From Sphyrna mokarran (lineage: Eukaryota), in NCBI GenBank assembly GCA_024679065.1, contig JAGIQG010000009.1, forward strand, positions 65,224,001 through 65,288,000: a stretch of 64,000 nucleotides of DNA, in the 5' to 3' direction. Made by a program: the position numbers and the translations under genes. Positions 25,521-64,000 of the stretch are shown here, one piece after another. The notes under the pieces were generated by a model, which was given only the letters and a program-made list of their open reading frames with translations, ran no database searches and had not been told where the DNA came from. The stretch's first letter is position 1. Every line of letters starts with the position of its first letter.

Positions 25521-25867
25521 ACAGTAAAAAGTCTTATAACTCAGATTAAAGTCCAACAGGTTTATTTGGTAGTAAATGCCTCTAGCTTTTGGGGTTTACT
25601 CTTTCGTCAGGTGAGTGGAAGTTCTGATCACAAACAGAACATATAAAAACTGTGTGCGCCTTCCTATGCTCTGTTTGTGATCAGAACTCCCACTCACTTG
25701 ACGAAGAGGCAAATCCCGAAAACTGGTGACGTTTACTACTAAATAAACCTGTTGGACTTTAATCTGGTGTTATGAGACTTTTTATTGTGACAACTATCTT
25801 TGCAGATTTGTAGTATTTGTTTCAATTTAATACTATCTTTAACTTCTTTATTTAGTTATGGATGGTG
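25445..25867. repeat. ~420-bp imperfect palindrome: two Penelope 3' ends back to back plus ~75 bp of duplicated CR1 flank
   Basis: 25445-25642 is the imperfect reverse complement of ~25665-25867. The inner part matches the 3' end of the Penelope element at 59250-59373. Confidence 0.92.
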
Positions 25868-41682: not shown

Positions 41683-41781
41683 CGGTTGTATTACGTTTTG
41701 TGGAGGTCTCTGTTCTGGTGCTCGTCCTTCTTCCCTAGCTTTGACTGATTGTAAAATTGCAAATATGTTCTTGGAAAAATT
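41683..41781 (-). CDS. CDC73: Parafibromin coding exon (equivalent to human exon 8, 99 bp)
   Basis: cctcag|AATTTTTCCAAG...CAACCG|gtaaga encodes [33 protein letters not shown], phase 0 at both ends. Confidence 0.97.
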
Positions 41782-41821
41782 CTGAGGATGGACAAAATAC
41801 AATCAGTAGTGGAAATGTTAA

Positions 41822-43630
41822 AGATAAAAGCAAATTACTACAGATTCTGGAATCTGAAAAACAGAAAATGCTACAAAATCTCAGCAGGACCAACAGCATC
41901 TATAGAAAGAGAACAGAGCTAACACTTCAAGACTAGTTGTCTCTTCATTAGAAGACTGATTGACAGCAGAAATGGTTACGGTTCTAGATAATTAAGAATT
42001 AAATTGAACTTCGTTATCTTTCACCTACATGTTGCCATCTTTTGTACAAAAGAAAGAAATGCCAGAATCTAATCAGTCAGCAGTTCTCAGATACTTCTTC
42101 CTATATCCCCAAGAACATAAGAAATAGGAGCAGAAGTAGGCCATCTAGCCCTTCAAGCCTGCCCTGCCATTCAATAAGATCATGTCTGATCCGAAAGTGG
42201 CTCAGTTCCACTTGCCCAGCTGCTCCCATTAACCCTTAATTCCCTTATCAATCAAAAATCTACCTACCTGGGACTTGAACATATTCAAGAAGTAGCTTCC
42301 ACCACTTCAATGGGCAGAGAATTCCAGAGATTCACTACCCGCAGAGAAGAAGTTCCTCCTCAATTCTGTTCTAAACTGACCCCCCCCCCCATCCTTATTT
42401 TGAGGTGTGTCCTCTAGTTCTTGTTTTCTTTCTAAGTGGAAAGAATCTCTCTGCCACTACCCTATCTAGCCCGTTCATTATATGTCTCTATATGATCACC
42501 CCTCAGCCTTCTAAATGCCAATGAGTCCCCACCACTAAAGATCAATTTGTTTCCAGAATCATCATCTAATCCAAAGATCTTCCCTGCACAGCTTCCTACC
42601 TCAGTTCCCTAACACCATACAACCCACTTCTCCCTCTCCCCCAAAATCCACAAACATTACTGTCCTGATAGACCAATTATTTCAGCCTGTTCCATTCTCT
42701 CTGATCTTATTTATTCCTCTATTTTGTTCTCCCTTTATTCAGTGTCTTTCAACTTACATCCATGACTCCTCCTCCATCATTCCCATAATTTCTGATTTCC
42801 CAGCCATAACCACTTCTTTAACATGTTAAATCTCTCTACCTCTCCATCCCTCCACCAGGACTGTGTAAGGGTTTCTCAATTCACTATGCTGAAGTGATTC
42901 CTTTAACTTATCTTGCTTTCTCCATACAAAAGATGTTGTGATGGTATTTGCATTATGCATCTCTTTGTACGGTAGAAATGCTGTACATTCCTCATCAATG
43001 ACTAAATCAGTGCCGCTTCCTGCTCAGAACTGAAAAAAGTCAATCAATCTTGCTTCCCATCCCCTCTCATCTCCAACACTTCCTTTCCTCAACTTTTCTG
43101 TCATTCTGTCTATTTCTGGGGGTAGACTGTCTGCTAATATTCATTATAAGCACAATGACTCCCATAGCTATCTGGACTACACTTCCTTGTTCCATCAGCT
43201 TCGCATCTGTTCAGATGATGCTACCTTCCACAATAGTACTACTGGCATATCTTTATTTTCTCTCAAATAAAATTCCTCCCATATTTTCCTTTCCACTAAA
43301 GAGTCCTTAACCACATTCAACCTGTTTCATGTACTTAGCCTCTCACCCCTTTCCCTCCCTCCCCAAGCTACAATAGATCTTCCTTTCCATATCCCAAAAC
43401 TCCACAAACGAAGGATTATGGCAGTCTCCCATCCCCTATCAGCAGTCCAATAGGATTCTTTCTTCCAGAACACACTGGTCCATTCCTCCTATGCTCTACA
43501 TCCGCTTTCAAATGGCATAAGCATTTTTACCTCTCTTAATTCTGAAGAATCATTCAACTCGAAATGTCAACTGTTTCTCTATTCATGAATGCTGCTAGTC
43601 CCGAAGTTTTAATGCCAGAATTTAGATATT
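41822..43630 (+). mobile_element. Degenerate Penelope-like element with an inverted terminal copy (41822-41955) and a minus-strand CR1 insert (~42112-42530)
   Basis: RT remnants PKIHK..CP.RPIISAC (~42640-42695) and SLY.SIP; the 3' end 'ctgaaga...cgaaatgtcaactgtttctct...gctgc' is mirrored in reverse at 41822-41955. Confidence 0.75.
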
Positions 43631-44634
43631 ACAGCCTTAGACAGGCTTTTAACTTAAACAATTGATCAAAAATACAAAAATTAGCTTGCTTCTGCTGCTG
43701 AGTAAGAGCAGTGAAAATTTAATAATTGGCATTACTGGAATAGGCCTGCAAGGAAGGGATAACACATAACTCAGATATCAAATATCCCAGTGAAGCAGAC
43801 ATATTCATATTCAAGCTTGACAGAAGACTCTCCTCCTTCCTTCAAAACCAACTTGGAATAATTGAGGTATTTTACAATTAAATATGGTGATAAATCATTG
43901 CAATTCAAAGGCATCAGCTGGATGGATAGGTTTTCCTTAATATTAGAACTCTCAGCATTGGGGCAACTTTCCTCCTCAGAGTTCAGTTTCCCAAACAAGT
44001 GGCTCTTTCCCACAGCCAGGTAATCATCATTTTTATTGTTAAATATGTGGTCTTGGCAACTAATTTGTTTAAATTAACCATCTCAACAAAAGGGGCTCAT
44101 CCATCTTTTTAAACTTTAGCACAAGGCATCATCAGCATCCTGTCATCCAATTAGAGAAAATGGGCACACAGCAAACAAATCCATAACTTCACTGTTTGTT
44201 GTGCAGCAAAGACATGATTTAAGGACCAGATCTGTAACATTCATATTCTCCCCTTGACCTTATAGCCTGTACACCTGCACCCAGTCATTTGCAAGAGTTG
44301 TTGTAAGGTACTAACCAGAGGGAAATACCATTTAACATGATTTCACTTCAGATATTGCCAGGTTTATTTCCCTAGACATTTACTTAGGATAGATTATAGA
44401 GGACAAGGTTTACCTTGCCCTTTTTTAATCAACAATGTACAGCCTTGGACATACAGCTATTTCTTAGGTAATGGAGAGGACAAAAGGTGCTTAAAATCAC
44501 ACTTCCAGGTCAAGATGATATTCAAAATGTGATTAAAATTTAACTGTTGTGTATTTTAGCTGTATGTACATGCAGTTTATTTTCAGTAAATTATTAGGTG
44601 ATATGGCCAACAATTAGAGAATATACAAAGTGTC

Positions 44635-44960
44635 ATAAGACAGGAGAAGTCAATGAAAATCATGACTGATCTGACATAATCACCAATTCCTCTTTTCCAC
44701 CTAATCCCAATAATCCTTGATTTCCTTAGTTTAAAAATCTGTCCATTTCAGTCTTGAATATATTTAATGACACAGCCTCTGCAGTAAAGAATTCCACAGG
44801 TTCACCACCCTCAGGAAACATTTTTCCCCATCTGTCTTCAATGGACCTAGACTTTCTAACAAGGATAAGCACCCTTTCAACATTTATCCTATCAAGACCT
44901 CTGAGAATCCTACATATCTCAATAACATCACCTCTCATTCTTCTAAACTCCAAGGAGAAT
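44635..44960 (-). mobile_element. CR1 3' fragment
   Basis: EFRRMRGD.IE...ILRGLDR...LNIFKTEMDRFL. Confidence 0.85.
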
Positions 44961-47799
44961 TAATCTCTCCTCTTAAGAAAATCCCTCTAAAATATCTTAC
45001 CTGGTCTGGACTACATGTGACTCTAGAGCTACACAGCTTTGTGATTAACTCGCAACTGCCCGCAAGGGCAAATAGAGATAGGCAATAAATGCTGGCCAGC
45101 CAGCAACACCAATGTCCCACAAATGAATAAATATAGTTACCTTTTCCTTCCTATTTATCCTTATAAAAAGTATCATAGCCTGAATATTTAATTCCTAATT
45201 GAATCTCTTTGTAACCACATCTCTGTAATGGCTATAAAATCCATACCTATTAACCTCAAAGTGTGTCATTAATTCATTTATTTTGTGCCGAATACCATGT
45301 ACATTTAAGTAAAGAGCCATTAATTTTGCTGTACCATTTTATTTCCCTTTTTGATATTATTTGTTGCCTTTTTATGTTTCTTCCTGTCACACTCAGGGTA
45401 TCATTACAAAACAGCTGACTTTCAATTATGCCATATCCTTTTGCTTTGAAAAGACTACATATCCCCTTTCTAGCACAACTGCCCACTGTCCAGAGCTGCA
45501 ATCAGTGCTGGACACAGTGTCTGAATTTCTGTGTTCTGAGCAAAGAGATTAGCTGAGCCCAAGTACAGCTGAGACCAGTTCAGATCAGTTTCCTTAAATT
45601 CTTTCAGCTATTGCCACTTGATCACCTCTTGACCCCTTATTTAGGCCCCTGGGGGAGAGTTACAAGTTAAACAATACTTGCATTTAAATGTTAAAACACA
45701 AATACAAACCAAATTAGATTTTTAGAAAAATGTTTAAAATTTCCCTCTACCTAACAAACTTTCACACATTGTCCTAAGCCATACTCCACATAAAGAAATT
45801 ACAATAAGCGTCTGGTACAATTTGAAACAAACAGTTCAAACAAAATAAAATCATTTCCTTTGAGTATTCATAAGTGATATGTCCTCCTCAGACAATGACC
45901 GCCCAAGGAGGTAACAACTTTAGTATAAATTGGATGTAAATAGTAAATTGGCTATAAGTTCTAAAAACAAATCTCCAAGAAGAATGACATCCATTTCAGA
46001 GTATTGAAAAAGAGAGAGAGAGAAATGGAGGAGGAGATATATGAAGATGATCATTACAAAGCAAGCAAATACGAGGGAAGTCCCAGTGGATAGATAGAGA
46101 CTTCATGATATATGTTTGCAAACATGGCAACAAAGCAAATTCCAACACCTCTGCAACTGCGAATAAGAAAATGGAATCCATTATCAGGAGCCTACTTTAG
46201 GTTTATCTGTACAATGATGACCTAATAAATCACAATCAATACAGAAAGACAATAGTCAGACAACATCTGCCTTTTCTGAATTTGAGCATGGTGATATCTT
46301 ATTAGAAGCCACCATAGAATTATAAATGACACAGCACAAGGGGCCAGTGTGACAATCAGGTTTGTGTTGACTCTTTAGTAAAGCAATCCAATTGAGTCAA
46401 CTAAGCCATTCATTTTTAACAGTCTCTAAATGGTTTCCTGAAAAATATATGGCCGACTCTCAAACAGCCCTACTATAGTCCTGTTAAATTACACAGAACC
46501 TTACTAGGTCCTTAACTGAAGTACTTACCCAAGGAAGGATGCAATAAAGGCTCAGATTGATCTACAGGAGGAGAGATCGTAGAGACTGGACCAAATATTG
46601 TGATTGTGTAACTTGTGCATGAGTGATATTAACCTGTTGTTTCAATGGCTGACAAGCATATACTGAGCTGTTCTGTACATTTTGAAGGCAAGAAAAGACA
46701 ATGACGAAAGATGGCTGCCATCAGAGTCCTGACTTTTGGTACAGCTAGTGACCAGTTTCTGGAAAGTCCCAACGTGGAACAAATTTTAAACATGCCACAG
46801 CATACTTTTCTGGAATTTCACACTGGAGGATATCAAGAATTACTTCAAAATGTATGGGACATAGCAAGTGCATTTCCATAAAATGCTCTCTCCAACAGAG
46901 AAAGAAGGCCTGCTAGAACTATAGGTGCATGGAGAGATATTTTCCTATTTCATCAGGATGTACAATGACTCACTTAAGATATTATGGTTAGGACATTATA
47001 GAGTCAAATCCCCTTACCGTGAAACAAAAACAATTGTTAATTAAGACATCCGATAAACAAACAGCCTTTTGAAATCATTATAGGGAGTGGGGTTCCACAA
47101 CTAAAGTGACCATTTTAAAATCTTTAACAAGCTACTCAAGACGGAAGTGAGTATCTGGAAAAGGTGCCAATGAACAATAATGATCACCTGCTCTCTCCTA
47201 AGTTAAGACACTATTACAGTTTAAAAATTCAATACATAAATGAATTTTCCAAAGAAAGGAACTTCAGATGTAAAACAAAGTGACACTGGAAGAGGTGGAT
47301 TAAGGATTTAAAAGAAATCATCTCCAGCAACTGCAGTTAGGAACAATATAATTGCTGAAATCTAAAACTTGGGAAAATCTCTGCTGCAGCCACAGTAAGA
47401 CAAACAAGGACTCAAACAGTATACTCTCAATTTCTTTACCTTTCAGTAGTGTACCTCAACTTATCTAAGAAAGTAATTAGCTATAGTAAATTTTACATGG
47501 TAGTGTGCATGAGAACACGGGCTGTGAATGTTTGAGAAGTGTGAGTTTACCCTTTCAAGTATTTTATCTTTACCTGGATGGATATTAAACTTAAAAAAAA
47601 ACAAATCCCTATTTATTTTAAACTTTAAGAAAGCCTGCAGGACTTGCCTTCCCTGCAACCAGTACAAATGGTTAAACGTAGGCATTCAGAAAATTCCTTC
47701 ATCCTTCCAAATTGACAAAATAAACTGTTACGGACAGATTTGGAGTGGTAGCACAGGAGAGATATATTTTGTCCCTCCTCATTCGGCCTTAACACAATA

Positions 47800-50700
47800 A
47801 ACTCCAGAATTCAAATGAATGAGAAGAAATTCAGAATAGTCGTTATGGACCGAAAGCCATCAGGAGATACTCAGACACTACGATTGTGTTTTCCCAAGTT
47901 TCAGCCGGTCTCCCTTATACTAAAGATTTATACACAACAAAGATGACCTGGTCTAACCTGACAGAGTGAACTAACCCTCCCCCCACCCGTTATCCCATTG
48001 GACACAAATCAGTAACAATTCAAAAAAAGAATGATTAAAAAAAGCCATATTCAAGACAAATTCCAGCAAAGGCTCCACCAAACCAACTATGACCTGTGAT
48101 GACACAACAAGGAATGTAAGATCCACCTTTGTGCTAAGAGGACTCTGAGTTCATCTGCTGCCACGAGTTCAGTAAATTGAATGCAATAACCCAATCGATT
48201 TCACCAGGCCTGGTAATAACTATTTCTCAGGTAATTAGCATAGTTTGAGGAAAGTTAACTTAATCTCTCATATGAGAATTGTTTCTATAATCAGAGAGTG
48301 TTTTAATAAAGCTAAGTTTGAACCAATCCTTTGTTTGTCTCAAAGTAAAAGCACTTGAGGTAAATGTACTAAATTGGTTGAAGTCACTGTATGAAATATT
48401 TTTACAGACAACAGTAAACCCCAGTGGGGGCCATCTAAACAGAAAGCGAGAAGAGGGGTCTGTCCATAACTTGCCCACAGACATAGCCTCCGATTTTGTA
48501 AAATTAATCTTATAATCCGAAAAAAAAGACCAAATCTAGCCATCACATCAATAAGAGCAGGGATAGAGATATACAGTTTGGAGACAGACAACAACACATC
48601 ATCTGCATAAAGTGAAATTTTGTGTTGCCTATCTCCATTGGACAACTCATAAACCTGGAGGCCACATCTAATGGCTTTAGAAATTTGAAATGTCAGCTAC
48701 GACTCCCAAGTTTTACAGATGCACCACAACAGAAAGCATTCTTTCTGGTTGTATCACAGCTTGGTACGGCTCCTGCTCTGCCCAAGACCACAAGAAACTA
48801 CAAAAGATCACGAATATAACCCAGTCCATCACACAAACCAGCCTCCCTTCCACTGACTCTGTCTACACTTTCCATTGCCTCAGCAAAGTAATAAACATAA
48901 CAAAAGACTCCATGCACTCCAGCCATTCTCGCTTCCACCTTTTTTCTTCAAGGAAAATATACCGTACCAAATGACTTAAGAACAGCCTTTTCCCTGCTGC
49001 CCTCAGACTTTTGAATGGACCTAATTTGTATTAAGTAACTCTTGCTCTACATCCTTGCTACGACTAAAGCACAACATTCTGAACTCTCTCGTTTCCTTCT
49101 TTTTGAATGTATGCTGTGTCTGTACAACATGCAGGAAACAATACTTTTCATTGAATGCCAATGTGACAATAATAAATCAAATCAAAAATTAAAGATTCAA
49201 TAGTTAAAGCAACCTAAGGAGAGACTGGACATCCCTGCCTTGTCCCTTTATGAAGGCCAAAATTCTCCACTTAGAGCCATTTATGAAGACCACTGCCATT
49301 TGATTCCGATGGAATACATCAATCCACTTCACAAAATCCCCTCCTAATCCAAATTTATGCAGCATACAGAACAAAGAATTCCACTCCACCTTATCAAAGG
49401 CTCTTTCAGCATATAGGGTGATGAGTAACCCAAAGCATGCTACAGGGAGATTTGGATAATATTCAATAATGTACTAACATTATTGCACGAGTTCTGAACC
49501 TTAATAAATTCAGTCTGGTCATCCCGGATAATGACAGGGAAGGATTTTCTCCAGATGCATTTCCAGGACCTTAAACCTTTCATGTCAACATTCAATAAAG
49601 AAATGAGTCTGTGAGAAGTACACTGGTCAGGATTCCTGCCCGGTTTCAGGATTAAGAAAATAATAGCCTTACGGACCAACTGCGGTAGCAAATCTATGCC
49701 AAATGTGATGATATATACCAATTAACAGATTTAATTACAAGGCTTTGAATTAATACCCAAAACCGTTAGACCTGGATGCCTTACCAGGCTGAAGCTCCTT
49801 TATGGCAGACCACCACCCATCTCAGAGATCAGGGCATTCAAAGCTACTCTCAAATCCTCTGAGATAAAAGAAAACGCAAGAGAAGAAATGCTTTATTAGT
49901 AATAGGGTATCATCAGCTGGACCAATGAATACAAATGAGCATAAAAGCTCTTAAAAGCTTTGTTAATATCTTCTGCCTTTATCTCCTACACACTGGAGTC
50001 CACCACCGAAGCTACTGTCTTAGAGTCTGATTACTTCCTGGTAAGAAAAGCCAAATACATGCAACTTCTGTTAGCAAACCTTAAATTCCTACCTGCTCAC
50101 TGGGTCTACAAAGACTTCAGTCCCACCATAACTATACCAATTTCTTTCAGCTTCACACAAGAATTCTTACCGCACCTCTTCCCAATTCAGCCAACCAGAC
50201 CTCCAACTGATGTCTTTTTCTAGCCAGGAATGAGATGACTAAACCTCTAGCAAAGGCTTTGCAAGTCTCCCAGATTATAACGGGGTTGACATCAGAAAGA
50301 GAATTAACCAAATAAAAAGGATCAAATTTGGTCTTGGAACACAAGATGAAATTATTATTTTTCAGTAAAGATGCATCATATCTCCACACCACTTCACAAG
50401 CTAAAGTCAACACTTTTGCTTGTTGCACAGGAATGCTTCTCATAACAGAGAGATCAATTAGCAGGTTAAAATGGAAATTAAAATTACTACCAATAAATGA
50501 ATAGCTGGAGGCCAATTCAAAGTCCATAAAGACTTTAGAGACTAAGTCTGGGGTAATTAAGAACCATTAACATTCATTATTCTCCCCATACACTAGTATC
50601 TTGGCAATCACATACTACTCCCTTGTCTTTCACACAGTTATCCAAACCAAAATACAGATTTTTGTTAACCAACATTGTTGCACCTCAACTGCTAGTCAGA

Positions 50701-50810
50701 AATAGCAAAACATACCTGCCCCAACCAGCCCCCAAGTTTATGCGCCCTGTAATCCAGATGAGTTTTTTGTACCAGAGCAATGTCAACTCTATCCTGAAAG
50801 AATATAAGAT
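47800..50810 (-). mobile_element. Degenerate L1-clade LINE ORF2 (EN and RT), interrupted by Rex1
   Basis: Minus-strand fragments KISLYADDVLL, LILKPGR.P..C.S.R.ISLLNVD.K, DQT.FIK, WETCKAFARG..IS and KFGLG..F.KWI. Confidence 0.85.
48673..49190 (+). mobile_element. Rex1/Babar LINE 3' fragment nested in the L1
   Basis: FYRCT.ESILSGCITAWYGSCSAQDHKKLQK; tail 'gtgacaataataaatcaaatcaaa'. Confidence 0.88.
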
Positions 50811-50814
50811 CTTC

Positions 50815-51895
50815 TTAACACACAATCTTCTTCAACACAGGTGCTCCATCAGGCTATATCCTCAGCCCCTTACTATATTCCTTATATACCTTTGACTGTG
50901 TGGCCAAATTCCCCTCCAACTCAATTTTCAAACTGGCTAATAGCACCACCATTGTAGGTCAGATTTCAAAAAATTATGACACACTATAGGAAAGAGATAA
51001 GAGAATCTGGTGAACTGGTGCAACGATATTAATCTCTCCCGCAATGTCAACAAAAAGATAGTCATCCACTTCATTTTTGATTTGATTTTTTATTGTCACA
51101 CGTATCAACACACTGTGAAAAGTATTGTTTCTTGCGCACATGGGCTACTCTGTGTCGTCATTGTTTAAGATCTGACCCACTATGGTAGTGTCATCACTAA
51201 ACTTGAAAATAGAACTGGAGGGGGAGCGTAGTGGAGGGAATGCCCTGTCTATGTCAATGTGGATGAAGCAGAAATGGTTGAGAGCTTCAGGTTTTTCTGT
51301 ATTCAGATCACCAACCTGTCCTGATCCCTCCATACGGACACTATAGTTAAGAATGCTCACCAATACTTCTATTTTCTCAGGAGTCTAAAAAAATTTGGAA
51401 TATCTGCTACAACTCTCATTAACATTATATTGGACCAAAGAAAGCATTTTTTCTGATTGTATCGTAGCTCGGCATGGCTTCTGCTCTGTCCAAGACTGCA
51501 AGAAATTACAAAGAGTCATGAATGAAGCACAGCCCATCACTCAAACCAGCCTTCCATCCACTGACACTATACACACTTTTCGCTGCCTCGGAAAAGCAGC
51601 TAGCATAGTCAAGAACCCCAGGGACTCTCTTCCAACTTCTTCCTTTGGGATAAAGATATAAAACTCTGAGATCACGTACCAACCGACTCAAAAACAGCTT
51701 CTTTCTTGCTACCTGTTTGAATGGACCTACCTCGCATTAAATTGATCTTTCTCTACACCCTAGCTATGACTGCAACACGATATGCTGCACTCTCTCCTTT
51801 CCTTCCTTATGCATGGTATTCTTTGTCTGTATAGCACGCAAGAAACAATATTTTTAACCATATACTAATAAGCGTGACAATAAAAAAGTCAAATA
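50815..51895 (+). mobile_element. Rex1/Babar LINE with an internal inverted insert (51076-51225)
   Basis: RT remnants 'PLLYSLYT.DCVAKF.SNSIFK' and 'ESI...CIVA..G.CS.QDCKKLQRV'; tail 'gtgacaataaaaaagtcaaat'. Confidence 0.88.
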
Positions 51896-51897
51896 AA

Positions 51898-52216
51898 GAG
51901 CAGTACAATGGTTAGCGCTGCTTCCTTACAGCGCCAGGGATCCGGGTTCAAATTCAGCCTTGGGCGACTGTATTATGTCTTATCAATCATGGCTGCATTG
52001 GTTTCTTCATAGTATTCCAATTTCCTTCCACAGTCCAAAGATGCTGTGCTAAATTACCTCGCAGTATCCAAAGTATTGTAAGTTAGGTGGATTAGCCACG
52101 GTTAAAAATGCACAAAGGATATAACTGGGGTGGGCCTGCTAAGGTGCTCTTTTGGAGAGTCTGTGCAGGCTCAATGGGCCAAATGGTCCCCTTCTGCACT
52201 GTAGGAATTCTATGAT
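51898..52216 (+). mobile_element. HE1/V-SINE-like SINE
   Basis: Head 'tggttagcgctgc...cagcgccagggatccgggttcaa', V-domain, and CR1-type tail 'gggaattctatgattct'-like. Confidence 0.85.
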
Positions 52217-53174
52217 TCTGATTCTTTTTAACAAGGTGATAAATTCCCTGCACGTCCCTGGAGCAAATCTGGCGTTGCTTATTCAAGCACAAAAAATACA
52301 GGATATTAGCACTTGTAAAATGCCGATAAAACTGCCATAGATTTTCATCCACAGTTCTGTGTGCACCTAGGACAGCTTACCACAACCCTTACCATAATGG
52401 AATACAATGCAATATCTCTTCCCAGGATATATAGTGTGTCTGTACTATATTAGGAGTTAAGCATTCTATCGTCCCAAAATATCTCAAATACAAATATGCA
52501 AGCCTTAATCCACAGGCCTACCTCCCCGCAAGTGCACTGCTCATTTTAATGATAATTGTAAAAGGATATCTGGTGAAAAACTCCATCACTATGTATACCA
52601 GGAAGATGAGAGAACAGATAAAAATCTCACAGCTGGAAAGCCCTACAATCTATGCAACACACTCCTTATGAGCAAGTAGTACATTGTGAGATATATTCCA
52701 TTAAGGATAAATGAGTGCTCCTGGGTACATCAGGATAACAAGCAAAAATTCACAGTCATGTACACTCGTAGATTGCCCCCATCAATCCCAACCCCCTTTA
52801 TCTGACCCATCAAATATCCGACACTATTCTCTCGTCCTCATTTGTTTATCCAGCTTCACATTAAAAGTTTTTGTTATTTGCCTCAACAATGCTTTCTCTC
52901 AAATTCTCTATTGAATTTAATATTGACTCTTACATTTATCAGTCTAGTTTTTTTGATTTCCCATAAGTGGATTATGATCACAATTACTGAGATTAGCTTT
53001 GAACTCCTCAAATATCAATTAATTGAATTTAAACTCTACCAGCTGTGAAGATGTGAAGATACGTCCTCAGAGCATTAAAATAAAAAGAAAATACTGCGGA
53101 TGCTGGAGATCTGAAATTAAAACAAAGTGCTGGAAAAGCTCAGCCAAGCCACTACATTCATTTAAGGTATTCCC

Positions 53175-54195
53175 AGTAGGCAACTGCAAAAAATAGAGAG
53201 GCATGGGATTGAGAGTGATTTTGCAGCTTGGATCAGAAATTGTTTAGCTGAAAGAAGACAGAGGGTGATGGTTGGTGAGAAACGTTCATCGTGAAGTTCA
53301 GTTACTAGTGGTGTACCGCAAGGATCTGTTTTGGGGCTACTGCTGTTTGACATTTTTATAAATGACCTGGATGATGGCACAGATGGATGGGTTAGTAAAT
53401 TTGCAGATGACACTAAAGTTGATGGAGTTGTGGATAATGTGGAAGGATGTCGCAAATGGAATTTAATGCGGAAAAGTGTGAGGTAATTTACTTTGGAAGG
53501 AATACAGAGTGCTGGCCTAATGATAAAATACTTGGTAGTGTAGATAAGCAGAGAGATCTCAGTGTCCATGTGCATACATCCCTGAAAGTTGGCACTGTGT
53601 GTTAGCTTTTATTAGTAGAGGGATTGAGTTTCGGAGCCCCAATATCATGTTGCAGCTGTATAAAACTCTGGTGTGGCTGCACTTGGAATACTGCTTACAG
53701 TTCTGGTCGCCGATTATTGGAAAGACGTGGAAGCATTGGAAAGGATGCAGAGGAGATTTACTAGGTTGTTGCCTGGTATGGTGGGAAGGTCTTATGAGGA
53801 AAGGCTGAGTGACTTGAAGCTGTTTTCGTTAGAGAGAAGGTTAAGAGATGACTTAATAGAGGCACATAAGATGATCAGAGTATTTGACAGGGTGGACAGT
53901 GTGAACCTTTTTTCTCTGATGATAATAGCTAATATGAGGAGATATAGCTTTAAATTGAGGGGTGACAGACATAGGGCAGATGTTATAGGTAAGTTCTTTA
54001 CTCAGAGTAGTAAGAACATAGAATGCCCTTTCTGCAATAGTAGTGGACTTGTCAACGTTAAGGGCATTTAAATGGTCATTGGATAAGTATCTGGATGATA
54101 TTGGAATAGTGTAGGTTAGATGGGCTTTAGATTTGTTTCACAGGTCAGTGCAACATTGAAGGCCTAAGGGCCTGTACTGCAACGTAATGTTCTAT
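53175..54195 (+). mobile_element. CR1 LINE 3' ~1 kb, inserted between inverted Penelope terminal remnants (~53085-53145 and ~54240-54520)
   Basis: [16 protein letters not shown] and HLEYC.QFWSP; related to the 5683-6758 subfamily but more decayed. Confidence 0.92.
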
Positions 54196-55739
54196 GAGCC
54201 TACCACCATCTGAACTAGCTCAGAAGAATCATATTGGACAAGGAATGTTAACTCTGTTTCTCTCTTCACCAATGGTGCAGGGCCTGCTGAGTTTTACCAG
54301 CATTTTCTGCTTTTATCCCTACAGCATTAACTTGGACCTCTGGATTGCAAGTGCAGTGATTTTACCATTATCACTTTCAATTCTACTTCTCTAGAGTAGC
54401 TTATTAACTACTGTTACTCTTAGGTGACAAGCTGGAGTGTTCACTCTTTTTCCCCTTTTTGGATGCTGAAACAGTGCTGTGCATCTGTTTTTATTTTAGA
54501 TTTCCAGCATTTGCTATTTATATTCTAGCTCCATTTTATTTGTGTGGCTGCAGTAGGTCAAATAAAGTCATAGCATTGCCAATTCGCTGGCATTCCCAAA
54601 GCCATTGGGACCTATCTCTGCACACTGACAGATGTTACATTTCTCACCACACTGCAGCCAAAGCCTAAGACCACTATCTCAATTCTGACAAAACACAAGT
54701 TCACCCTTCTGAAATCCAAGACTCTGCACAATACTACCAAATTCCTCAACCTCCCATGCTGCTTTGAACTCCTAATATCCATCTCACAGCTACATTCATC
54801 CCAACTACTGTGAAAGCAAAAGGCACGTCCTGCTTGAGTACTCCCAAGTTCTCAAACCTTTACCCATGTTGGCCAACATAAATCACAATAACTATTTTTA
54901 GAAACAATGCATCCTTTAACTCAGTGAGCAAAGCCAGGGAAACTTGCTAACATAGGAACATTTTGTATAAAGCATGTACTTTATTAAGCAAACTATATAT
55001 GTGCATTCAGATAATAATATATTAAAGGCAGCCTTTCAGCTTCAGTATCATGGAGCTATGATGACAATTAAAATTAGATGACATTAGGTGTCATAATATT
55101 GTCTAATATTTGTCTAATATTTTGACCAATATAGTAAAACTGTCAACCAAAGTGGAGAATCATCACACCAAGTCGAAGCCTCAAGAGTCAGTCTAAAATG
55201 ATTGCATCAGGGACTTCGAATAACAAAGCACAGCAAATGCAAAAAAAAGTACGTACAAGAACAAGTTCAAATTAGGAGGCATTGTGAGTCAGACAGATAA
55301 CAAATGAGGAATACATGCCATGCTAAAACATCCAATTACCCACAAAAACAATAATGAAATTATTTATTTAATTACTGAAGAATATTTCAACAAAAGATTT
55401 TTCTCAGTAATGGGTGATTTTAAACCTACTACTTTTTGTTCTATAGCACCATTGAGCTACATTTTTACCAAAAATAAATGACAAAGCAGTACTCAATTTC
55501 AGTCACAGGGTGGTGCTAGCAATACCAAGGGGCAATTCAAATCCAAACTTGCTTGGCATTTGCCTGAAGATACCAAGGAGCTAACAAGTTGCCAGCTATT
55601 TCCACCAAACCGCACCAACTCAAAGATTTCAGAAGAGGCAACTGGAAGAGAGAAGAAAACATCTTCATATTCCATAACAATCCTCCTGAAATCAACAGTA
55701 ATAAAAATGCCACTAAAACACCCAATGTAACACCGTGGA

Positions 55740-56250
55740 AGGATGTCAAGGCTTGCAGGTTTACTAGAATGTTACCAAGAATGAAAACTTCAGTTACATG
55801 GAGAGATAGACAGCAGAGAAGATTGAGAGAATTAACAGAAGTTTTAAAAATACTTGACAGTTTCTCTTTATTTATCTAAACTATTTTGAGTGGACTTAAA
55901 AACCAGGTGCAATGAGGAGGTTATGCCATGAGTTACAATGATTTGGAATGCATTGGTGATGGTGAAAGCACATTCAATAGCAAACATCAGGAGAAAATTA
56001 GCTAAATACTTGAAAATAAATTAACTTTCAAGGTTATGCAGAAAGAACAGAAGAGTGATTACACAAATTGATTTTTAACTCTTTTGAAATCAAAGAGCAA
56101 AGGGATCATTTTATTTATGTTTCGTATTCATGTGGTCAAAAACATGTCAAATTTTGAATTTCACAAATACAGCAAAGTGTGGAAAATTCCAAGCTCTATG
56201 AGCAGCCACCCAGGCTGAATAGGCTCTTTCTGTGCTTTATGTTTCTGTGA
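55740..56250 (+). mobile_element. Old CR1 3' fragment carrying a ~135-bp insertion
   Basis: RFTRMLPRMK remnant; the 3' UTR is split at ~56062-56195. Confidence 0.7.
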
Positions 56251-56460
56251 AAAAGGAGATATGAAAGCTGAATTGCTTGAACAACTGAGAAGTATGTAAT
56301 TTATATTTATTGCTGGAAAATATTAGCAGAAAACTTAACCCAGACACAGATAATGTTTGGGATTAATATATTACTAACAGAAAACAAAGACAATACACTA
56401 TCTGTAAGCTGGAGAACACTAGCAAGCAAACCGCTATGCCTATTTCAACATACTGTGGCT

Positions 56461-59373
56461 GATGCCGGCATTGGACTGGGGTAAACACAGTAAGGAGTCC
56501 AACGCCAGCATCTCCATATCATGACTACCATCGACACTACAAACTGCCAGCTTCAAGTGCAGAGGATCTCCAAGAACATCGCGCATATCGACACAGACGT
56601 CAAGTTTTTACAAAGATGCAAGAAAGCAGACAAGATACTCAAAGGACTACAGATCATGAATCCACTCAGGTCAACCTATAACAGAGACTACGCTGAGAAA
56701 CTTTGCCATCATATTTCTCTCACACTCCTCAACCACTTCATACACCAGCAAATGCCGCATCCTGGAAACCAAGATAGAATTCATATTCTCAACTTGCACT
56801 CAGGACACAGACCAGCAGCGAAACGCTGTCAAGCAAATGAGACAAAGAAACTACACCATCTACATGCACATCAAGAACAGGAAACTTGAAAAACTCGGCA
56901 TCACCACCAGCTGCAATCAAACTTCCCCGGCACTACAGTAGAAAACAGTGCCACCACAGGGAAGTCTATTGTCAAATTGTCAAAGTACACACATCAACCA
57001 TACAAAGTCGAAGTTCTCAGCCGAGGGCTCAATTTTGCCCCACACTAAAATGGACCTCGTCAGTCACACAGAGGACACAGAGGAATTCATCAAGTGAATG
57101 AGGCTACGGGAGTTCTTCCAAAACCTCAAGAGACCAACAGTGAACACAATGAGACAGAATGAACCGAAACAGCTGACAGAGTGTTCCACAGTGCAGCAAC
57201 CAATTGGACTTCTCCAGAAGGCCACTGCCCTTGACTTGACATGTATGCTCAAGCCATCAGGAGGTGCGTCAACACCAGATTCATCAACCACGTTCACAAG
57301 ACAGCCCCAAACATCACCCAAGCACAATGCAACACCATCCACGCTCTCAAGACCAACCGCAACATCGTTATCAAACCAGCAGACAAAGGAGGGACCGTCA
57401 TACTGAACAGAACAGATTACTCAAAGGAGTGTACCGACAGCTGAATAATGAGGAACACTACAGACAGTTACCTGCAGATCCAACCAAAGAACGCACCCCA
57501 TCAACTCAACACTCTGATCAAGACCTTTGATCCGGACCTTCAGAGCTCCCTCCATGCTCTCATCCCACGTACTCTCAGCGTTGGGAAATCTCTACTGCCT
57601 CCCAAAGATACACAAGGCCAACACTCTCAGCTGTACCATTATATCGGGCAATGGGACCCTGTGCGAGAATTTCTCTGGCTAAGTCAAGGGCATTCTGAAA
57701 TCCATTGTACAAAGAATCCCCAGCTTTTGTTGCAACACTACAAACTTCCTACAGAAACACAGCACACTGAGCAATTGAACCAGGGGCACTCCTCGTCACA
57801 ATGGATGTCTCAGTGCTCTACACCAGTATTCCCCACGAGGATGGTATTGCTGCAACTGCCTCAGTACTAAATGCCAACAATTGCCAGTTTCTAAACGCAA
57901 TTTTACAACTCATCTGCTTCATTCTGGACCACAATGTCTTCACCTTCAACAACCAGTTCTTCATCCAGACACACAGATGGGGATCAAATTCGCACTTTAA
58001 TATGCCAACATCTTCATGCACAGGCTTGAACAAGACTTCTTCACCACACAGGACCTTCAATTGATGACATACGCTAGATATATCGATGACATTTTCTTCC
58101 TTTGGACTCACGGTGAACAATCACTGAAACAACTGTCTGAATGACATCAACAAGTTCCATTCCACCATCAGACTCAACATGGACTGTTCTCCAGAAACTG
58201 GATGCATCCTTGGACACGTGCATCTTCATCAAGGACTGCCACCTCAGTACACCGCAAGCCCATAGATAACTTCACGATGCTCCACTTCTCTAGCTTCCAC
58301 CCTAAACATGTTATCCAGTAAAGACAACCCTCCATATACACAGGATCTGCTCAGATGAGGAGGATCGCAAAGACACCTTCAGACACTGAAAGATGCCCTC
58401 ATAAGAGCAGGATATAGCGCTCGACTCATCAACAGTTCCAACATGCCACAGCGAAAAACTGCATTCACCTCCTCAGAAGACAAACACAGGACATGGTAGA
58501 CAGAGTACTCTTCGCCATCCAATACTTCCCCAGAGCAGAGAAACTACGACGTCTTCTCTGGAGTCTTCAACATGTCATTGATAAAGACGAACATCTTGAA
58601 AGGGCCATCCCCACACCCCCACTTCTTGCCTTCAAATAACCGCATAACCTCAAACAGACCATTCTCCGCAGAAAACTACCCAGCCTTTAGGAGAATATCA
58701 CGCAACCCTGCCACAGCAACCTCTGCCAGACATGGATGCCATCATCTCACACGAGAACACCATCCACCAGATGCATAGCACATAATCTTACAACTTGGCC
58801 AATGTTGTCTACCTAATGCGCTGCAGGAAAGGATGTCCCGAAGCACGGTACATTGGAGAGACCATGCAGATGCTACAACAATGGATGAATGAACATCGTT
58901 CCACAATCACCAGGCAAGACCTCTGATCTTTGAGTAAATGTTCTCCAAAGCAGCCTTCATGACATATAACAGCACAGAGTTGCTGAGCAGAAACTGATAG
59001 CCAAATTCTGCACACGAGGACGACCTCAACCGGGATCTTGGGTTCATGTCACAATATCTGTAACCCTCATGACTTGCGTGAACTTGCAACATCTCACTTA
59101 CTGTCTTGTAATGGAGACAATACACATCACTTTAACCTATGTTTAATGCTATCTCCACTCACATTGCCTACACCTTTAAGACTTGAATAGCAGATTAGCT
59201 ACAAAGACACACGTTCTAATCAGTATTCTGTCAACTGTGTGTGCCTTTATATGCCCTGTTTCTGATCAGAACTCTCCACTCACCTCTCAAAGGAACAGCA
59301 TTCCAAAAGCTTTGGCGTTTACAATCAAATAAACCTATTGGACTTTATCCTAGTGTTGTGAGACTTCTTACTG
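56461..59373 (+). mobile_element. Near-full-length Penelope-like retroelement (RT and GIY-YIG), frameshifted
   Basis: Fragments NIVIKPADKGG, MDVSVLYTSIPHEDGI, RYIDDIFF.WTHG and NVVYLMRCRKGCPEARYIGET (GIY-YIG); 3' end 'aaataaacctattggactttatcctagtgttgtgagacttcttactg'. Confidence 0.95.
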
Positions 59374-59399
59374 CATTTCAACATACAACAGAGGTTTGC

Positions 59400-59810
59400 T
59401 ACAGAGATATTTCCAAGCTGTAGATTAGATTATGACATAAAACAGATAGTTCATTTTCCAAAACATATTAGTGTGCAGGTACAGTCAGTAATTAGCAAAG
59501 TAAGGGGAACTGAATGCAAAAGTTAAGAAGGTTATGCTTCAGTTATACCACACATTGGTAACATTACATCTGAAGCACTGTGTACAGTGGCGCTCTCCTT
59601 ATTTAAGAAAGGTTGTAAACACACTGGAAGCAGTTCAGAGGTGATATGATACCTAAGGGGTTACCACTGAGTTGCCTTATGGGGAAAGGCTGGACTAGAG
59701 TTGCATCCATTATAGAAGAGTCAGAGATAACTTGATTGAAACAAAATCCTGAGGGGACTTGACAAGGTGGAAAGGGTATTTCTTTTTGAGGGAGAATTCA
59801 GGATAAATAG
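59400..59810 (+). mobile_element. Old CR1 RT fragment
   Basis: 'gttatgcttcagttatac...catctgaagcactgtgtacagt...ctggaagcagttcagag'. Confidence 0.7.
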
Positions 59811-61772
59811 TAGAGCTAAATGTCAATTCCCAGCAGAACAAAAATGGAAAAGCACTTATCCCCATTTTTTATTAAATTATGGACTGAGCAGCTCATGATT
59901 CCAGTGATGGAATTTAATTATTTGGCAAGGCCAGTAGTGACATCTGGAAAATATCAGTCAGCAATAGGACAACAAAAGTACAAATCCAACAAAACAAAGA
60001 GGAGAATAAACATTTGCAATGATTTCTATGCTTTCTTTCCAAGATCTTTTTATGCATTTGAGCAACAGCAGCTGCTATTTATATTTTCCAACAGAATCAA
60101 CACAAGATCAGGGGAAAAATATCATTTTTCAACTTTCTAACCTATTATTTAAAGTACTTCCAAATTTATTCAAGTGGAGGGAGGCTGTAAGCTTGAGGCA
60201 ATGTAACCCAAACAGGAGACTTGGAAAGAAAAATAAGTTAGTGCCATATTGCAACTGCGGTATCTATTATATAGATAATTCAGTTTCTGAAGCACACAAT
60301 TCCAAAATTTCACTTAAAGTATCAATGCCTATAGGTGGCACTATATCAAATCATACAATTGCTTATTATAAGCAATTATAATTATTATAAGGGACTAAAA
60401 TCTTTGATTGCACAAAATGATTTTAACTCTTGAAATCAAGAGCAAGATGGATGATTTTATTTATTTTTTATGTGTTCATGTGGTCAAAAACGTGTCAGGT
60501 TTTGAACCTCATTAGTACAGCAAAGAATGGAAAGCTCCAAGTTGTCTTTAAATTGTATCCTTGAGGTCTCACCCCTAAGCATTCCTGAACCACTATTCTA
60601 TTAACTTGATTATTTAGTCCTATGCATTGATGTGTATTGTTCCACAAGCTACTGTTCCATTAACTTACTTTTCTATTCAACTCATTTTGCATTTCCCAAG
60701 CTATCGTCTCAGACTCAATTGTTTGACCTAGTCTGATACGGTCAGCAAACTTTACCAAATTTGACAGTCCCCAGTAAGAATTTTTTTTAGATCAAGAAAA
60801 TCACTCAAATTTCAGAAATCTTGGATGTTTCAATATGAAGTGGATGTGCACACTACTATGCCTAACTCTCTCTGGATTTAAGTTTAGTTCAGTGTATTAT
60901 TCACATTAATCAGGGAAACCCACACAGATTAGAGTTAAGTAAGCAAGCAGCAGAAATTTTTGTGAACATTTTTCTGAAGCAGCATAAACAATCAAGGAAA
61001 TGAGGGGATAATTGCATTTCAGTGCAAAATTGTCTTTCCAGGAAACATTTGTATAACAGAATTCTCAAAATAGGTCAACAACTGGACAAAAACGTCATCA
61101 CTTTTCAGGAAATCAACTAATTACTTTCATTGAATTCTAATAGTCATGAACACTGAGGGGGTAAAAAGTAATTCAGCAAAGACTGCATCCTTTGTCTCCA
61201 TTTCTTTCCTAGCAACATTCGCAACTGTAAACTCATCTCACCACTGATCAGCAGCAAATAAAGCCTTGAAGAATATGAGAAAACCAATACCTTCAGACTA
61301 AAATGTGCAAACAGTTGTCACCCTATCTACTTTTCCAATTTACTTTCATAACAATTAATGAAGTTCTATTAATCTTTGCAAATAGAGTTGATAAAATCCA
61401 GTTGTTGCAAAGGGGCAGTCCTTTTGAATATTTTCTACTTTTATAAACCTATCTGTTGAGATGTCATAAAAACTAATACAATTAACTTTCTGAAGGTATG
61501 AACTATTCACATTATACAAAATTATTCTGCATATTGTGCAATTTACTATAATCAGAATACAATTAAAGTACCTAAAGTCAAAAGCTTGGAATCTGTCAAG
61601 ACATTCTTCTGAACTAAATCGAAAAGTTAGGAACAAGATTAGGTCCTGTTCCTCATCCTGTACCACCGTTCAGTAGCAATAACATAGTAAATGATTCTGG
61701 AAACTCAAATTACATCAACTGGAAAAGCCATCACCCAATAACCAGAGTTACGGCTTCAAAATGTGGAAAACA

Positions 61773-62068
61773 CAGCGGCACAATAGTTAGCACCACTGCT
61801 TCACAGCACTAGGGACATAGATTTGATTTCCAGCATGGATCACTGTCTTTGCAGAGTATACTTTCTCCACGAGTCTGCGTGGGTTTCTTCCGAGAGCTCT
61901 GGTTTCTTTCTACAGTCCAAAAGACATGTGGTCAGATGCACTGGCCATATTAAAATCTCCCTTAGCACAACCTGTACAGGTGCAAGAATGTGGTGATGAG
62001 AGGATTTTCACAGTAACTTAATTGCATTGTTAATGTAAGCCTACTTGTGACAATAATAGATAAACTTC
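61773..62068 (+). mobile_element. V-SINE/HE1-like SINE
   Basis: Head 'ggcacaatagttagcaccactgcttcacagc', 'tctgcgtgggtttc', tail 'gttaatgtaagcctacttgtgacaataa'. Confidence 0.85.
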
Positions 62069-62183
62069 AAAAACATTATCAGAATTGACCAACTACTTAA
62101 ATTATGGCAACTATGCTTTATAGCCTCCAAGAACACTGAACAGCAGCCTGTAAAATTCTTAAGCAGTTTCATCATTACAGACT

Positions 62184-63039
62184 GTGTTATAATGACCAAC
62201 TTTTTTTTGTGATTTTGTTGCTGAATAACTATTGAAGTATTGGCAGGACACCAAGAAAACTCCTTTGGTCCACTGGATATTTAGTGTTTGTGTTTACGGT
62301 CGATGAGACCTTGGTTTAATATCTCATCCGTTGGAAGTGCACTCGATGGTGTACCTAGATTCACATTTATAAACCTAGATTCACATTTTTTTCTGTCAAT
62401 TAGACAGCAGTTATTATCTCTCAGGCCTTATGCACAACTACTATTTATTTGCTTCAAAAATATTAAGCTAATTTCATAGGTCTGCTCTAATTTACTCATC
62501 CAATCTGAGGTATATGCCACATTGGTCAACTACTATGAGCATTTAATTTTTGACATCAAGTATATAACCAAAGTTTGTGTTATAAATTTCTACCAGTGAT
62601 GTCACAAAATCAATCCACATACTCTACAACATTTATAAATTTCAAGGTGGCAGCTTGCAATCACCTTCTCAAGAGTAGTGATAAACAATGAATGCTGGCC
62701 TAGCCAGTAAAGCGCACGTTGTGTGGAAGGATAAATTTTTTAAAAAGGTGAATATCTCGCCTTTAAATATTCCTACCTAAATAATCATCAGCCATGATGC
62801 AGTAACTATCATTCCCATCTGAGTCAATATGTTGTGGGTTCAAGTTCCTCATCAGAGCTTGAGCAGCTCTACACCATCGAGTGCACTTCCAACGGATGAG
62901 ATATTAAACCAAGGTCTCATCGACCGTAAACACAAACACTAAATATCCAGTGGACCAAAGGAATTTTCTTGGTGTCCTGCCAATACTTCAATAGTTATTC
63001 AGCAACAAAATCACAAAAAAAAGTTGGTCATTATAACAC
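62184..63039. repeat. 170-bp inverted repeat with one mismatch (62184-62353 / 62870-63039, 516-bp spacer), DeuSINE-derived
   Basis: Base-by-base comparison gives 169/170 complementary positions (mismatch C62260/A62963). Contains the Deu-like motif 'cggatgagatattaaaccaaggtc...ggtgtcctgccaat'. Confidence 0.95.
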
Positions 63040-63044
63040 CAGTG

Positions 63045-64000
63045 CATACAGACCATAAAGAATTTGCCATGTGAAATTTGGATGATCAGCTACTTCTGGA
63101 GTACAAGTCTTCAGCACTATTGCCAGAATGTTTTCAGTGCCCATTTCTTTTGCAGTATTCTGTGCCTTCAGCCATTTCTTGATGACATGTGAAGTGAATT
63201 TAACTGACTGAAGGCTAGCTAGTATCTGTGAAGCTAGGGACCTCAAGAGCTCGAAATTGATCCTGCACTTGGCACTTCTGGCTGAAGATGGCTGCAAATG
63301 CTCCAAACCTTATCTTTTGCACTGATGTTCCCAGCTTCCCCATCAAGGATGACAATATTTGTACAGCCTCCTCCTGCAGTTAGCTGTTAATTCTCCATTA
63401 CTACTCATGACTAGCTGTGATAGGATTGCAAATCTTAGATCTCATCTGTTGGTTTTTGGGACAATTTAGTTTTATTTATCATATGCTGTCCTACTGCTTT
63501 GCATTTAAGTAGCCTTGCCTTGTTGCTTCACCAAGTTGACACTTCATTTCTAGGTATGCCTGGTGCCATTCCTGGCATGCCCTCTGCACTCTTCATTGAG
63601 CAAAGCTCAGCCTGGCTTAATGGTAATAGTGGATGATATGCCAGGCCATGCAATAACAGGTTGAATACTAATGCTGCTGCTGGCCCCTTCACCAATAGGA
63701 TAGATAATCAATGTTGAGTTGTTAGATCCATTTGAAATTCTCATTTGGCAAGGTGGTAATGCCACATAACACAATGGTGGGTACCCTCAAAATAAAAACA
63801 AGACTTTGTACCTATAAGGACTATACGGTTGTCACTCCTATCAATACTGTCATGTATAGACACATCTGCAATAAGTAGGTTGGCAAGAAAGTCAAATAGG
63901 TTATCCTCTCACCATCTGCCATAGGCCCCATCTTCAGTTAGTTCAAATTAGTAGTGATGTTACCAAGTCACTCCATGAGATTGCAACTGAAGTCCACCGA
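63045..64000 (-). mobile_element. Old non-LTR retrotransposon fragment running to the window end
   Basis: ORF remnant KEMGTENILAIVLKTCTPEVA is typical of the region before a LINE RT; homologous to 7170-7605 and 25900-26885. Confidence 0.75.

What the first reader, a model, noticed from the sequence alone, without database searches (positions are those of the whole stretch)
62184..63039. Old SINE sequence held as a 169/170-identical inverted repeat, fully paired on the CDC73 strand
Seen: both arms are heavily decayed relative to the DeuSINE-type consensus as I recall it, yet differ from each other at one base. On the CDC73 (minus) transcript that position is a G-U wobble, giving an uninterrupted 170-bp duplex with a 516-nt loop. 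Each copy also seems to have its own SINE-like sequence outside the identical core: a tRNA-like head at ~62800-62865 on the right, and 'cctagatt' (tandemly duplicated at 62354-62388) on the left. Inference: either a very recent inverted duplication or ongoing arm-to-arm gene conversion of an old pair. It is a strong candidate ADAR/Dicer substrate and a candidate invertible segment.
Basis: partly seen in the sequence, partly recalled or inferred. Interest (0 to 1): 0.7.

Follow-up and report, generated by a model that had tools for sequence, protein, structure and literature searches.

The report
Young inverted copy inside CDC73 intron
A 170-base piece of an old, dead repeat in an intron of the CDC73 gene of a fish (likely a shark or ray) sits copied backwards about 500 bases away; two related species lack the copy, so it is likely the scar of a recent, ordinary DNA-repair slip, with no function shown.

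Summary
The inverted repeat is real: arms 62184-62353 and 62870-63039, 169/170 identical, 516-nt spacer, in a 25.1-kb CDC73 intron. A same-species run holds both inner junctions. Single contigs from two relatives (7-8% diverged) run from 62181 across 7-10 other letters straight to 62365/62368 and carry only the right arm. The insert has two templated parts: the inverted arm, copied from the one full SINE 500-690 nt away, and 11 nt copied from 20 nt downstream, rejoined at a 4-nt microhomology. That second piece explains the 'cctagatt' tandem copy. This is the known complex templated-insertion (inverted-duplication) pattern. It is common here: 3 such pairs at 95% or more identity, and 13 at 80% or more, in 494 kb. 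The G-U wobble is a coin toss. ADAR editing is plausible but untested; Dicer processing and spacer flipping have no support. One point is unexplained: the junction 8-mer matches the SINE family in register. The scan found the same kind of event before on other DNA. Ordinary; low interest.

The parts
62184..62353 (-). Left arm: the new, inserted inverted copy of the SINE core. It extends to 62181 if a 1-nt gap is allowed.
   Evidence: absent from relatives X3 and X5
62354..62364 (+). Second templated piece of the insertion (11 nt), a direct copy of 62374-62384
   Evidence: 16/16 direct repeat; this 11-mer occurs only at these two places in 494 kb; absent from X3 and X5
62365..62368 (+). 4-nt microhomology where the insert rejoins the ancestral sequence (inferred)
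   Evidence: X5 resumes at 62365 and X3 at 62368; same 4 nt end the duplicated 16-mer
62373..62388 (+). Local template of the second piece; ancestral single copy (inferred from where the relatives' alignments resume)
62354..62869 (.). 516-nt spacer; same orientation as in relatives X3 and X5
62639..62754 (+). 3' end of a different, abundant old repeat family inside the spacer
   Evidence: 39 other genomic matches at 72-84%; alignment of 11 copies
62787..62869 (+). Head of the old SINE (tRNA-like by recall; no tRNA call by ARAGORN or Rfam)
   Evidence: negative
62870..63039 (+). Right arm: core of the old SINE and donor of the copy; its outer half is aligned in both relatives
61771..62071 (.). 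High-copy old repeat ending about 110 nt left of the insertion site; not part of the event
41782..64000 (-). Host intron of CDC73 (25,147 nt; its donor site lies at 66928, beyond the window), 3,889 nt from donor to repeat and 20,402 nt from repeat to acceptor
41683..41781 (-). Next CDC73 exon downstream (CDC73_N profile positions 243-267; the low boundary is approximate)

Best explanation
The left arm is a lineage-specific insertion, absent from two relatives, that likely arose in one recent template-switch repair event. Shown: in both relatives the left flank (to 62181) joins through 7-10 other letters to 62365/62368, and only the right arm exists; in this genome those letters are replaced by 183-186 nt. 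Inferred mechanism: at a break or stalled fork near 62181 the free end annealed by about 1 nt to the opposite strand near 63043. It copied about 173 nt of the old SINE backwards, switched to a second template 20 nt beyond the break (62373-62388), and rejoined at a 4-nt microhomology at 62365-62368. One substitution has arisen since, probably in the donor arm. Inferred consequence: a 170-bp duplex in CDC73 pre-mRNA that would be an incidental nuclear ADAR target and be discarded with the intron; most likely neutral.
For:: X3 record 22 (923 nt) and X5 record 28 (970 nt) each bridge left flank, spacer and right arm with no left arm; the joint 62181-62368 has 10 letters between in X3; the extra 11 nt are an exact local copy; only the right copy has a SINE head; arms differ at 0.6% (95% Poisson range 0.015-3.3%) against 7-8% between species, so the arms last matched within roughly the last 7% (range 0.2-45%) of the time since the split. 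Both arms share changes that the relatives lack: one more T at 62201, and 78 letters where both relatives have 92; an age series of local inverted pairs (13, 8, 5 and 3 pairs of 60 nt or more within 2 kb at 80, 85, 90 and 95% identity in 494 kb; 2 pairs at 2-5 kb; 3 direct pairs within 2 kb). The pattern matches 'complex' MMB-TI events (PMC8421209, section 10 part 1) and human 'Inverted Dup' variants (PMC4617611, passages).
Against: The 8-mer just inside the left arm equals the SINE family majority at the expected place (about 1e-4 by chance for five pre-set positions; column support 0.48-0.66); I treat this as coincidence but cannot show it. The left outer flank is faintly family-like (12 of 200 shuffles as good; right outer flank 18 of 200). 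Direction (gain here rather than loss in the relatives' ancestor) rests on two relatives whose tree position is unknown. The relatives' letters for 62870-62947 were not seen (one search returned no result). The outer-left junction lacks independent read support, and X1 may be the assembly's own sample. The enzyme (MMBIR, FoSTeS or polymerase theta) cannot be told from sequence.
Confidence: 0.9

Rival explanations
1. An old inverted pair of SINE copies was homogenised by arm-to-arm gene conversion in this lineage, and the relatives' ancestor deleted the left copy's core.
For: In-register 8-mer at 62354-62361; faint family likeness of the left outer flank (12 of 200); the direction of change is not rooted by a third species. 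An earlier AI note (e1-9215933, not tested here) reports conversion at another palindrome in this genome.
Against: No left arm in 2 of 2 covered relatives. No SINE head on the left (61 of 200). The outer end of identity falls within 3 nt of the relatives' breakpoint, which an insertion gives automatically and conversion only by chance. It would need conversion between copies about 30% diverged (family median 68%).
Confidence: 0.04
2. Same insertion, but guided by longer homology: the site was the remnant of a gutted SINE, or the donor still held the family 8-mer, and this steered the template switches.
For: In-register 8-mer; the right copy lacks 11 family letters just before the arm.
Against: X3, X5 and X2 align up to 62869, past that 11-nt gap, so it seems older than the split. 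The left junction lacks three donor letters it should carry if it had been copied from an intact donor.
Confidence: 0.04
3. Assembly artefact (fold-back or mis-join).
For: The outer-left junction is not covered in X1, and X1 may be the assembly's own sample.
Against: X1 record 8 (576 nt, depth 16.8, like flanks at 16-18) carries 30 nt of arm at both ends of the spacer with no differences. The insert has a two-template junction and replaces ancestral letters, and the arms differ by one substitution and a 1-nt gap at the outer edge.
Confidence: 0.02

Closest known systems
MMBIR-type templated insertions (MMB-TI), 'complex' class; Osia et al. 2021, PMC8421209 (passages and section 10 part 1 of 2 read)
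   Same: Insertion that is an inverted copy of a nearby template, followed by a switch to a second, forward template, with short microhomology at the junctions; found as germline variants (33 of 103 and 26 of 99 events were complex).
   Different: Their tool looked only within 100 bp; here the main template is 516-690 nt away and the insert is 183-186 nt. Seen here between species, not in reads against a reference.
'Inverted Dup' structural variants, 1000 Genomes phase 3; Sudmant et al. 2015, PMC4617611 (3 passages read)
   Same: 54% of their sequenced inversions were inverted duplications, nearly all under 1 kb and inserted within 5 kb of the other copy, not typically linked to retrotransposition. 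This is the size and spacing seen here.
   Different: Those are human polymorphisms; whether this one still segregates is unknown.
Four-point template-switch model; Loytynoja and Goldman 2017, PMC5453318 (passages read)
   Same: A switch-and-return event copies a reverse-complement fragment and creates a new inverted repeat.
   Different: Here there are two successive switches, and the fragment is longer than the tens of bases that motivated that model.
Synthesis-dependent MMEJ, loop-out and snap-back; Yu and McVey 2010, PMC2943611 (passages read)
   Same: The 11-nt direct copy ending in a 4-nt microhomology resembles a loop-out product.
   Different: The main insert is much longer and more distant, and no primer repeat longer than 1 nt is seen at the switch.
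Intronic inverted-repeat dsRNA edited by ADAR; PMC5625713 and PMC7006430 (passages read)
   Same: Near-perfect intronic duplex from repeat sequence. Hyper-editing is recorded in elephant shark brain (200,171 sites, 81% in repeats), and near-perfect inverted pairs are abundant in pre-mRNAs (0.78 million across 49 organisms).
   Different: The arms come from local duplication rather than two insertions. At 170 bp it is below their 'long' class (over 300 bp). No RNA data here.
Recurrent NAHR inversions between inverted repeats; Giner-Delgado et al. 2019, PMC6748972 (passages read)
   Same: A spacer flanked by highly identical inverted repeats.
   Different: Their 24 NAHR inversions have repeats of 654 bp to 24.2 kb; these arms are 170 bp, and no flipped allele was seen.

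Membership tests
Local inverted duplication / complex templated insertion | Copy absent from the ancestral allele (an insertion, often with a small loss) | tested here: met
   X3 and X5 contigs bridge the site without it; 7-10 letters replaced
Local inverted duplication / complex templated insertion | Insert is an inverted copy of a nearby template, under 1 kb long and within 5 kb | tested here: met
   170 nt at 516 nt; no third copy found in the genome search, which skips very common words
Local inverted duplication / complex templated insertion | A further template switch with a resolvable second template | tested here: met
   62354-62364 equals 62374-62384
Local inverted duplication / complex templated insertion | Microhomology at the junctions | tested here: inconclusive
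   About 1, 1 and 4 nt; 1 nt is chance level, and the ancestral letters come from relatives 7-8% diverged
Local inverted duplication / complex templated insertion | Dependence on a given repair pathway or polymerase | not testable with these tools
   sequence only
Old inverted pair under gene conversion | Both arms present in relatives, alike within and unlike between species | tested here: not met
   one arm only in 2 of 2 covered relatives
Old inverted pair under gene conversion | Decayed homology continuing beyond the identical core | tested here: not met
   identity stops at both ends; inner-left flank 61 of 200 shuffles, outer-left 12 of 200, one 8-mer apart
tRNA-headed SINE, DeuSINE superfamily (SacSINE1-like) | Dispersed family with shared head and core of about 400-450 nt | tested here: met
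   29 other copies from one exact pattern; profile and identities of 62-74%
tRNA-headed SINE, DeuSINE superfamily (SacSINE1-like) | tRNA-derived head | tested here: inconclusive
   B-box-like motif in the family majority (motif identity recalled); no ARAGORN or Rfam tRNA hit at this copy
tRNA-headed SINE, DeuSINE superfamily (SacSINE1-like) | Deu central domain matching the published consensus | not testable with these tools
   no repeat library on hand; PMC4824008 passages name SacSINE1 as the shark member; resemblance is recalled
ADAR-edited intronic duplex | Long duplex can form on the transcribed strand | tested here: met
   predicted fold; intron position
ADAR-edited intronic duplex | A-to-G changes in RNA against matched DNA | not testable with these tools
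   no RNA holder listed
Invertible segment (NAHR flip-flop) | Both spacer orientations occur | tested here: inconclusive
   window orientation equals that of X3 and X5; contigs of X1 cannot show orientation across 170-nt arms

The most novel reading that the evidence does not exclude
The copy was steered into the remnant of a gutted older SINE and refilled it in register from its neighbour. The resulting perfect 170-bp duplex still segregates, lets the 516-nt spacer flip, and is edited heavily enough to alter CDC73 pre-mRNA processing.
Probability: 0.04. Interest if true: 0.45.

Novelty: new member of a known kind. Interest (0 to 1): 0.13.

Why it matters
By itself little: one more local inverted duplication deep in an intron. 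Its value is as a clean, outgroup-resolved example with all junctions readable in a fish genome. The count around it (3 pairs at 95% or more in 494 kb, 2 without the one I was sent to, plus a 59-nt perfect pair) suggests thousands genome-wide if this region is typical. That would make local template switching a steady source of intronic double-stranded RNA in this lineage. It is one region only, chosen around the finding.

Tried and rejected
Polarity of the one mismatch from family copies: inconclusive (A 9, G 8, other or gap 12 of 29). The tentative polarity rests on X3 and X5 not showing T at 62260. Higher conservation of the arm in relatives (3 of 91 and 3 of 90 differences against 7-8%): not significant (p = 0.06). 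X1 arm-contig depth (19.4 against 16.8-17.7) lies between one- and two-arm expectations and might hint at heterozygosity, but contig depth is no copy number; not used. Run X2 (about 99% alike) does not cover the left junction. No RNA holder listed. Of 18 runs listed, 4 were laid, meant to show the right-arm region in X3, X10, X12 and X6, returned no result. A profile from the 17 loci (11 aligned) described the spacer repeat, not the arm family. Lenient local alignments of the left copy run through flanks by chance and were replaced by the shuffle test. Rfam: 0 hits at gathering score in the window, 3 chance-level hits at E 2-4. A search for CDC73 + B3GALT2 + intron (8 papers, listing only) showed nothing on this repeat; I make no wider claim of absence from print. 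No supplements were read; those of PMC8421209 and PMC4617611 may hold size and distance tables that bear on the comparison.

Full report
Observation. On the minus strand the mismatch is U-G, and the predicted fold pairs all 170 positions (z = -33). Any transition mismatch is G-U on one strand, so this has even odds. A 1-nt gap extends the match by about 3 nt at the outer end.

Setting. The genome has 2.77 Gb; I take it for a shark or ray from recalled repeat likeness and from unchecked earlier notes. CDC73_N and CDC73_C exons lie on the minus strand on both sides of the window, and three more exons lie inside it at about 41.7, 37.0 and 31.3 kb. The repeat sits in a 25,147-nt intron, 3,889 nt from the donor site and 20,402 nt from the acceptor. 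The nested B3GALT2 reading frame on the plus strand ends at window 1056, 61 kb away.

What the arm is made of. One exact pattern from the head found 29 other copies. Their profile matches 62787-62968 (E 7.6e-12). This copy is 62-74% alike to them, and they are a median 68% alike to each other (383 pairs with over 200 aligned letters), so the family is old. Only the right copy has a head: 0 of 200 shuffles reach its score, against 61 of 200 for the matching stretch inside the left arm. Relative to the family majority, the right copy lacks 11 letters after 62865 and about 32 after 62892 in 3 of 4 gap settings, and has extra letters near 62927-62948. A genome search with the arm found only these two copies, but it skips common words. 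DeuSINE membership is recalled, not tested; PMC4824008 (passages) names SacSINE1 as the shark member.

Is it real? Of 18 runs listed, 4 were laid on 60900-62869. In X1 (same species; 1 difference in 915 nt of flank) a 576-nt contig covers 62324-62869 exactly and carries 30 further letters, so the spacer meets arm sequence at both ends. A 426-nt contig holds the arm and runs on into other sequence, as expected for the right flank. X1 has no cover at 62088-62153, so the outer-left junction is unconfirmed, and X1 may be the assembly's own sample.

Relatives. X3 (organism C) and X5 (organism D) differ from the window at 7-8% of flank and spacer sites. Each has one contig that runs along the left flank to 62181, crosses 10 (X3) or 7 (X5) other letters, resumes at 62368 or 62365, follows the spacer in the same orientation, and then enters arm sequence on the opposite strand. 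That is the right arm alone. X2 does not cover the junction. So 2 of 2 informative relatives lack the left arm. Both arms here share features the relatives lack: one more T at 62201, and 78 letters where both have 92. The 92 fits 78 + 31 - 17 from the family alignments; this is inference from lengths, since those letters were not seen (one search returned no result). Neither relative shows T at 62260, so the single substitution probably arose in the donor; family copies do not settle this.

Reconstruction (inferred). Seven to ten ancestral letters were replaced by 2 nt + the 170-nt arm + 11 nt. The first 172 nt match the donor region read backwards, with one G missing. The 11 nt equal 62374-62384, and occur nowhere else in 494 kb. 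The insert rejoins at 4 nt that also end the duplicated 16-mer. This is a two-switch templated insertion with about 1, 1 and 4 nt of microhomology. Arm divergence is 0.6% (95% range 0.015-3.3%) against 7-8% between species; one difference or fewer in 170 at 8% has probability 1e-5.

Against this reading. The 8 letters next to the left arm equal the family majority at the place the family predicts, about 1e-4 by chance for five pre-set positions. The left outer flank is faintly family-like (12 of 200; right outer flank 18 of 200). The direction of change is not rooted by a third species. An old converted pair would, however, need a headless left copy, conversion between copies about 30% apart, a deletion in the relatives' ancestor, and a conversion tract ending within 3 nt of that deletion's breakpoint. 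I put that at 4%, a homology-guided insertion at 4% and an artefact at 2%.

How common. In 494 kb spanning the gene, inverted pairs of 60 nt or more within 2 kb number 13, 8, 5, 3 and 1 at 80, 85, 90, 95 and 98% identity. Only 2 lie at 2-5 kb, and direct pairs within 2 kb number 3. The other young inverted pairs are 753 nt at 97.2%, 245 nt at 96.7% and 59 nt at 100%. Ten inverted pairs (50 nt or more, 80% or more, under 5 kb) lie within the CDC73 span. This one is the most perfect long pair there, in a continuous age series. Earlier AI notes report like events elsewhere in this genome and in a camelid; they are unchecked and not counted as support.

Known kinds. Human 'Inverted Dup' variants are under 1 kb and within 5 kb of their source (PMC4617611, passages). 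Complex MMB-TI events copy an inverted and then a forward template (PMC8421209, passages and section 10 part 1). The four-point model (PMC5453318, passages) and SD-MMEJ (PMC2943611, passages) describe the same logic at smaller scale. The pathway cannot be assigned from sequence.

Function. The duplex would form in pre-mRNA (predicted). ADAR hyper-editing of repeats is recorded in elephant shark, and near-perfect intronic inverted pairs are abundant across animals and are depleted far less than in mRNA (PMC5625713, PMC7006430, passages), so incidental editing is likely and unremarkable. Dicer acts mainly in the cytoplasm (own knowledge), which an intronic hairpin rarely reaches. Human inversions that recur between inverted repeats have arms of 654 bp or more (PMC6748972, passages), and the spacer here is in the ancestral orientation. 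Nothing here shows selection or expression.

Verdict. A real, young, lineage-specific inverted templated insertion of a known kind, most likely neutral. Interest 0.13.

Noticed in passing
window 31612-31814 / 33190-33392: Older local inverted pair, 205 nt at 87%, with its inner half more alike than its outer half. It lies about 280 nt upstream (on the transcript) of the CDC73 exon at about 31.3 kb; it could be an aged duplication or partly converted.
   Followed up: partly
window 63709-63834 / G000:C1548:65288612-65288740: Another inverted pair, 129 nt at 85% and 777 nt apart, only 670 nt from the right arm.
   Followed up: partly
G000:C1548:65444789-65446491 and 65452451-65453963: Two young inverted pairs 8 kb apart: 753 nt at 97.2% with a 197-nt spacer, and 245 nt at 96.7%.
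   Followed up: no
G000:C1548:65105086-65105648 and 65405261-65406840: A 59-nt perfect inverted pair inside CDC73, and a 135-nt perfect direct pair 1.3 kb apart beyond the gene.
   Followed up: no
window 1-1056 (+), starting 219 nt before the window: Intact 424-aa B3GALT2 reading frame nested antisense in a CDC73 intron; the same nesting is recalled from mammals.
   Followed up: partly
window 25522-25787 and 59233-59373: Two adjacent stretches match the same distant sequence in opposite orientations (78%), so an older fold-back arrangement may lie at 25522-25787.
   Followed up: no
G000:C1548:65014001-65508000: Inverted pairs within 2 kb outnumber direct pairs 13 to 3 and outnumber inverted pairs at 2-5 kb 13 to 2; one region only.
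   Followed up: partly
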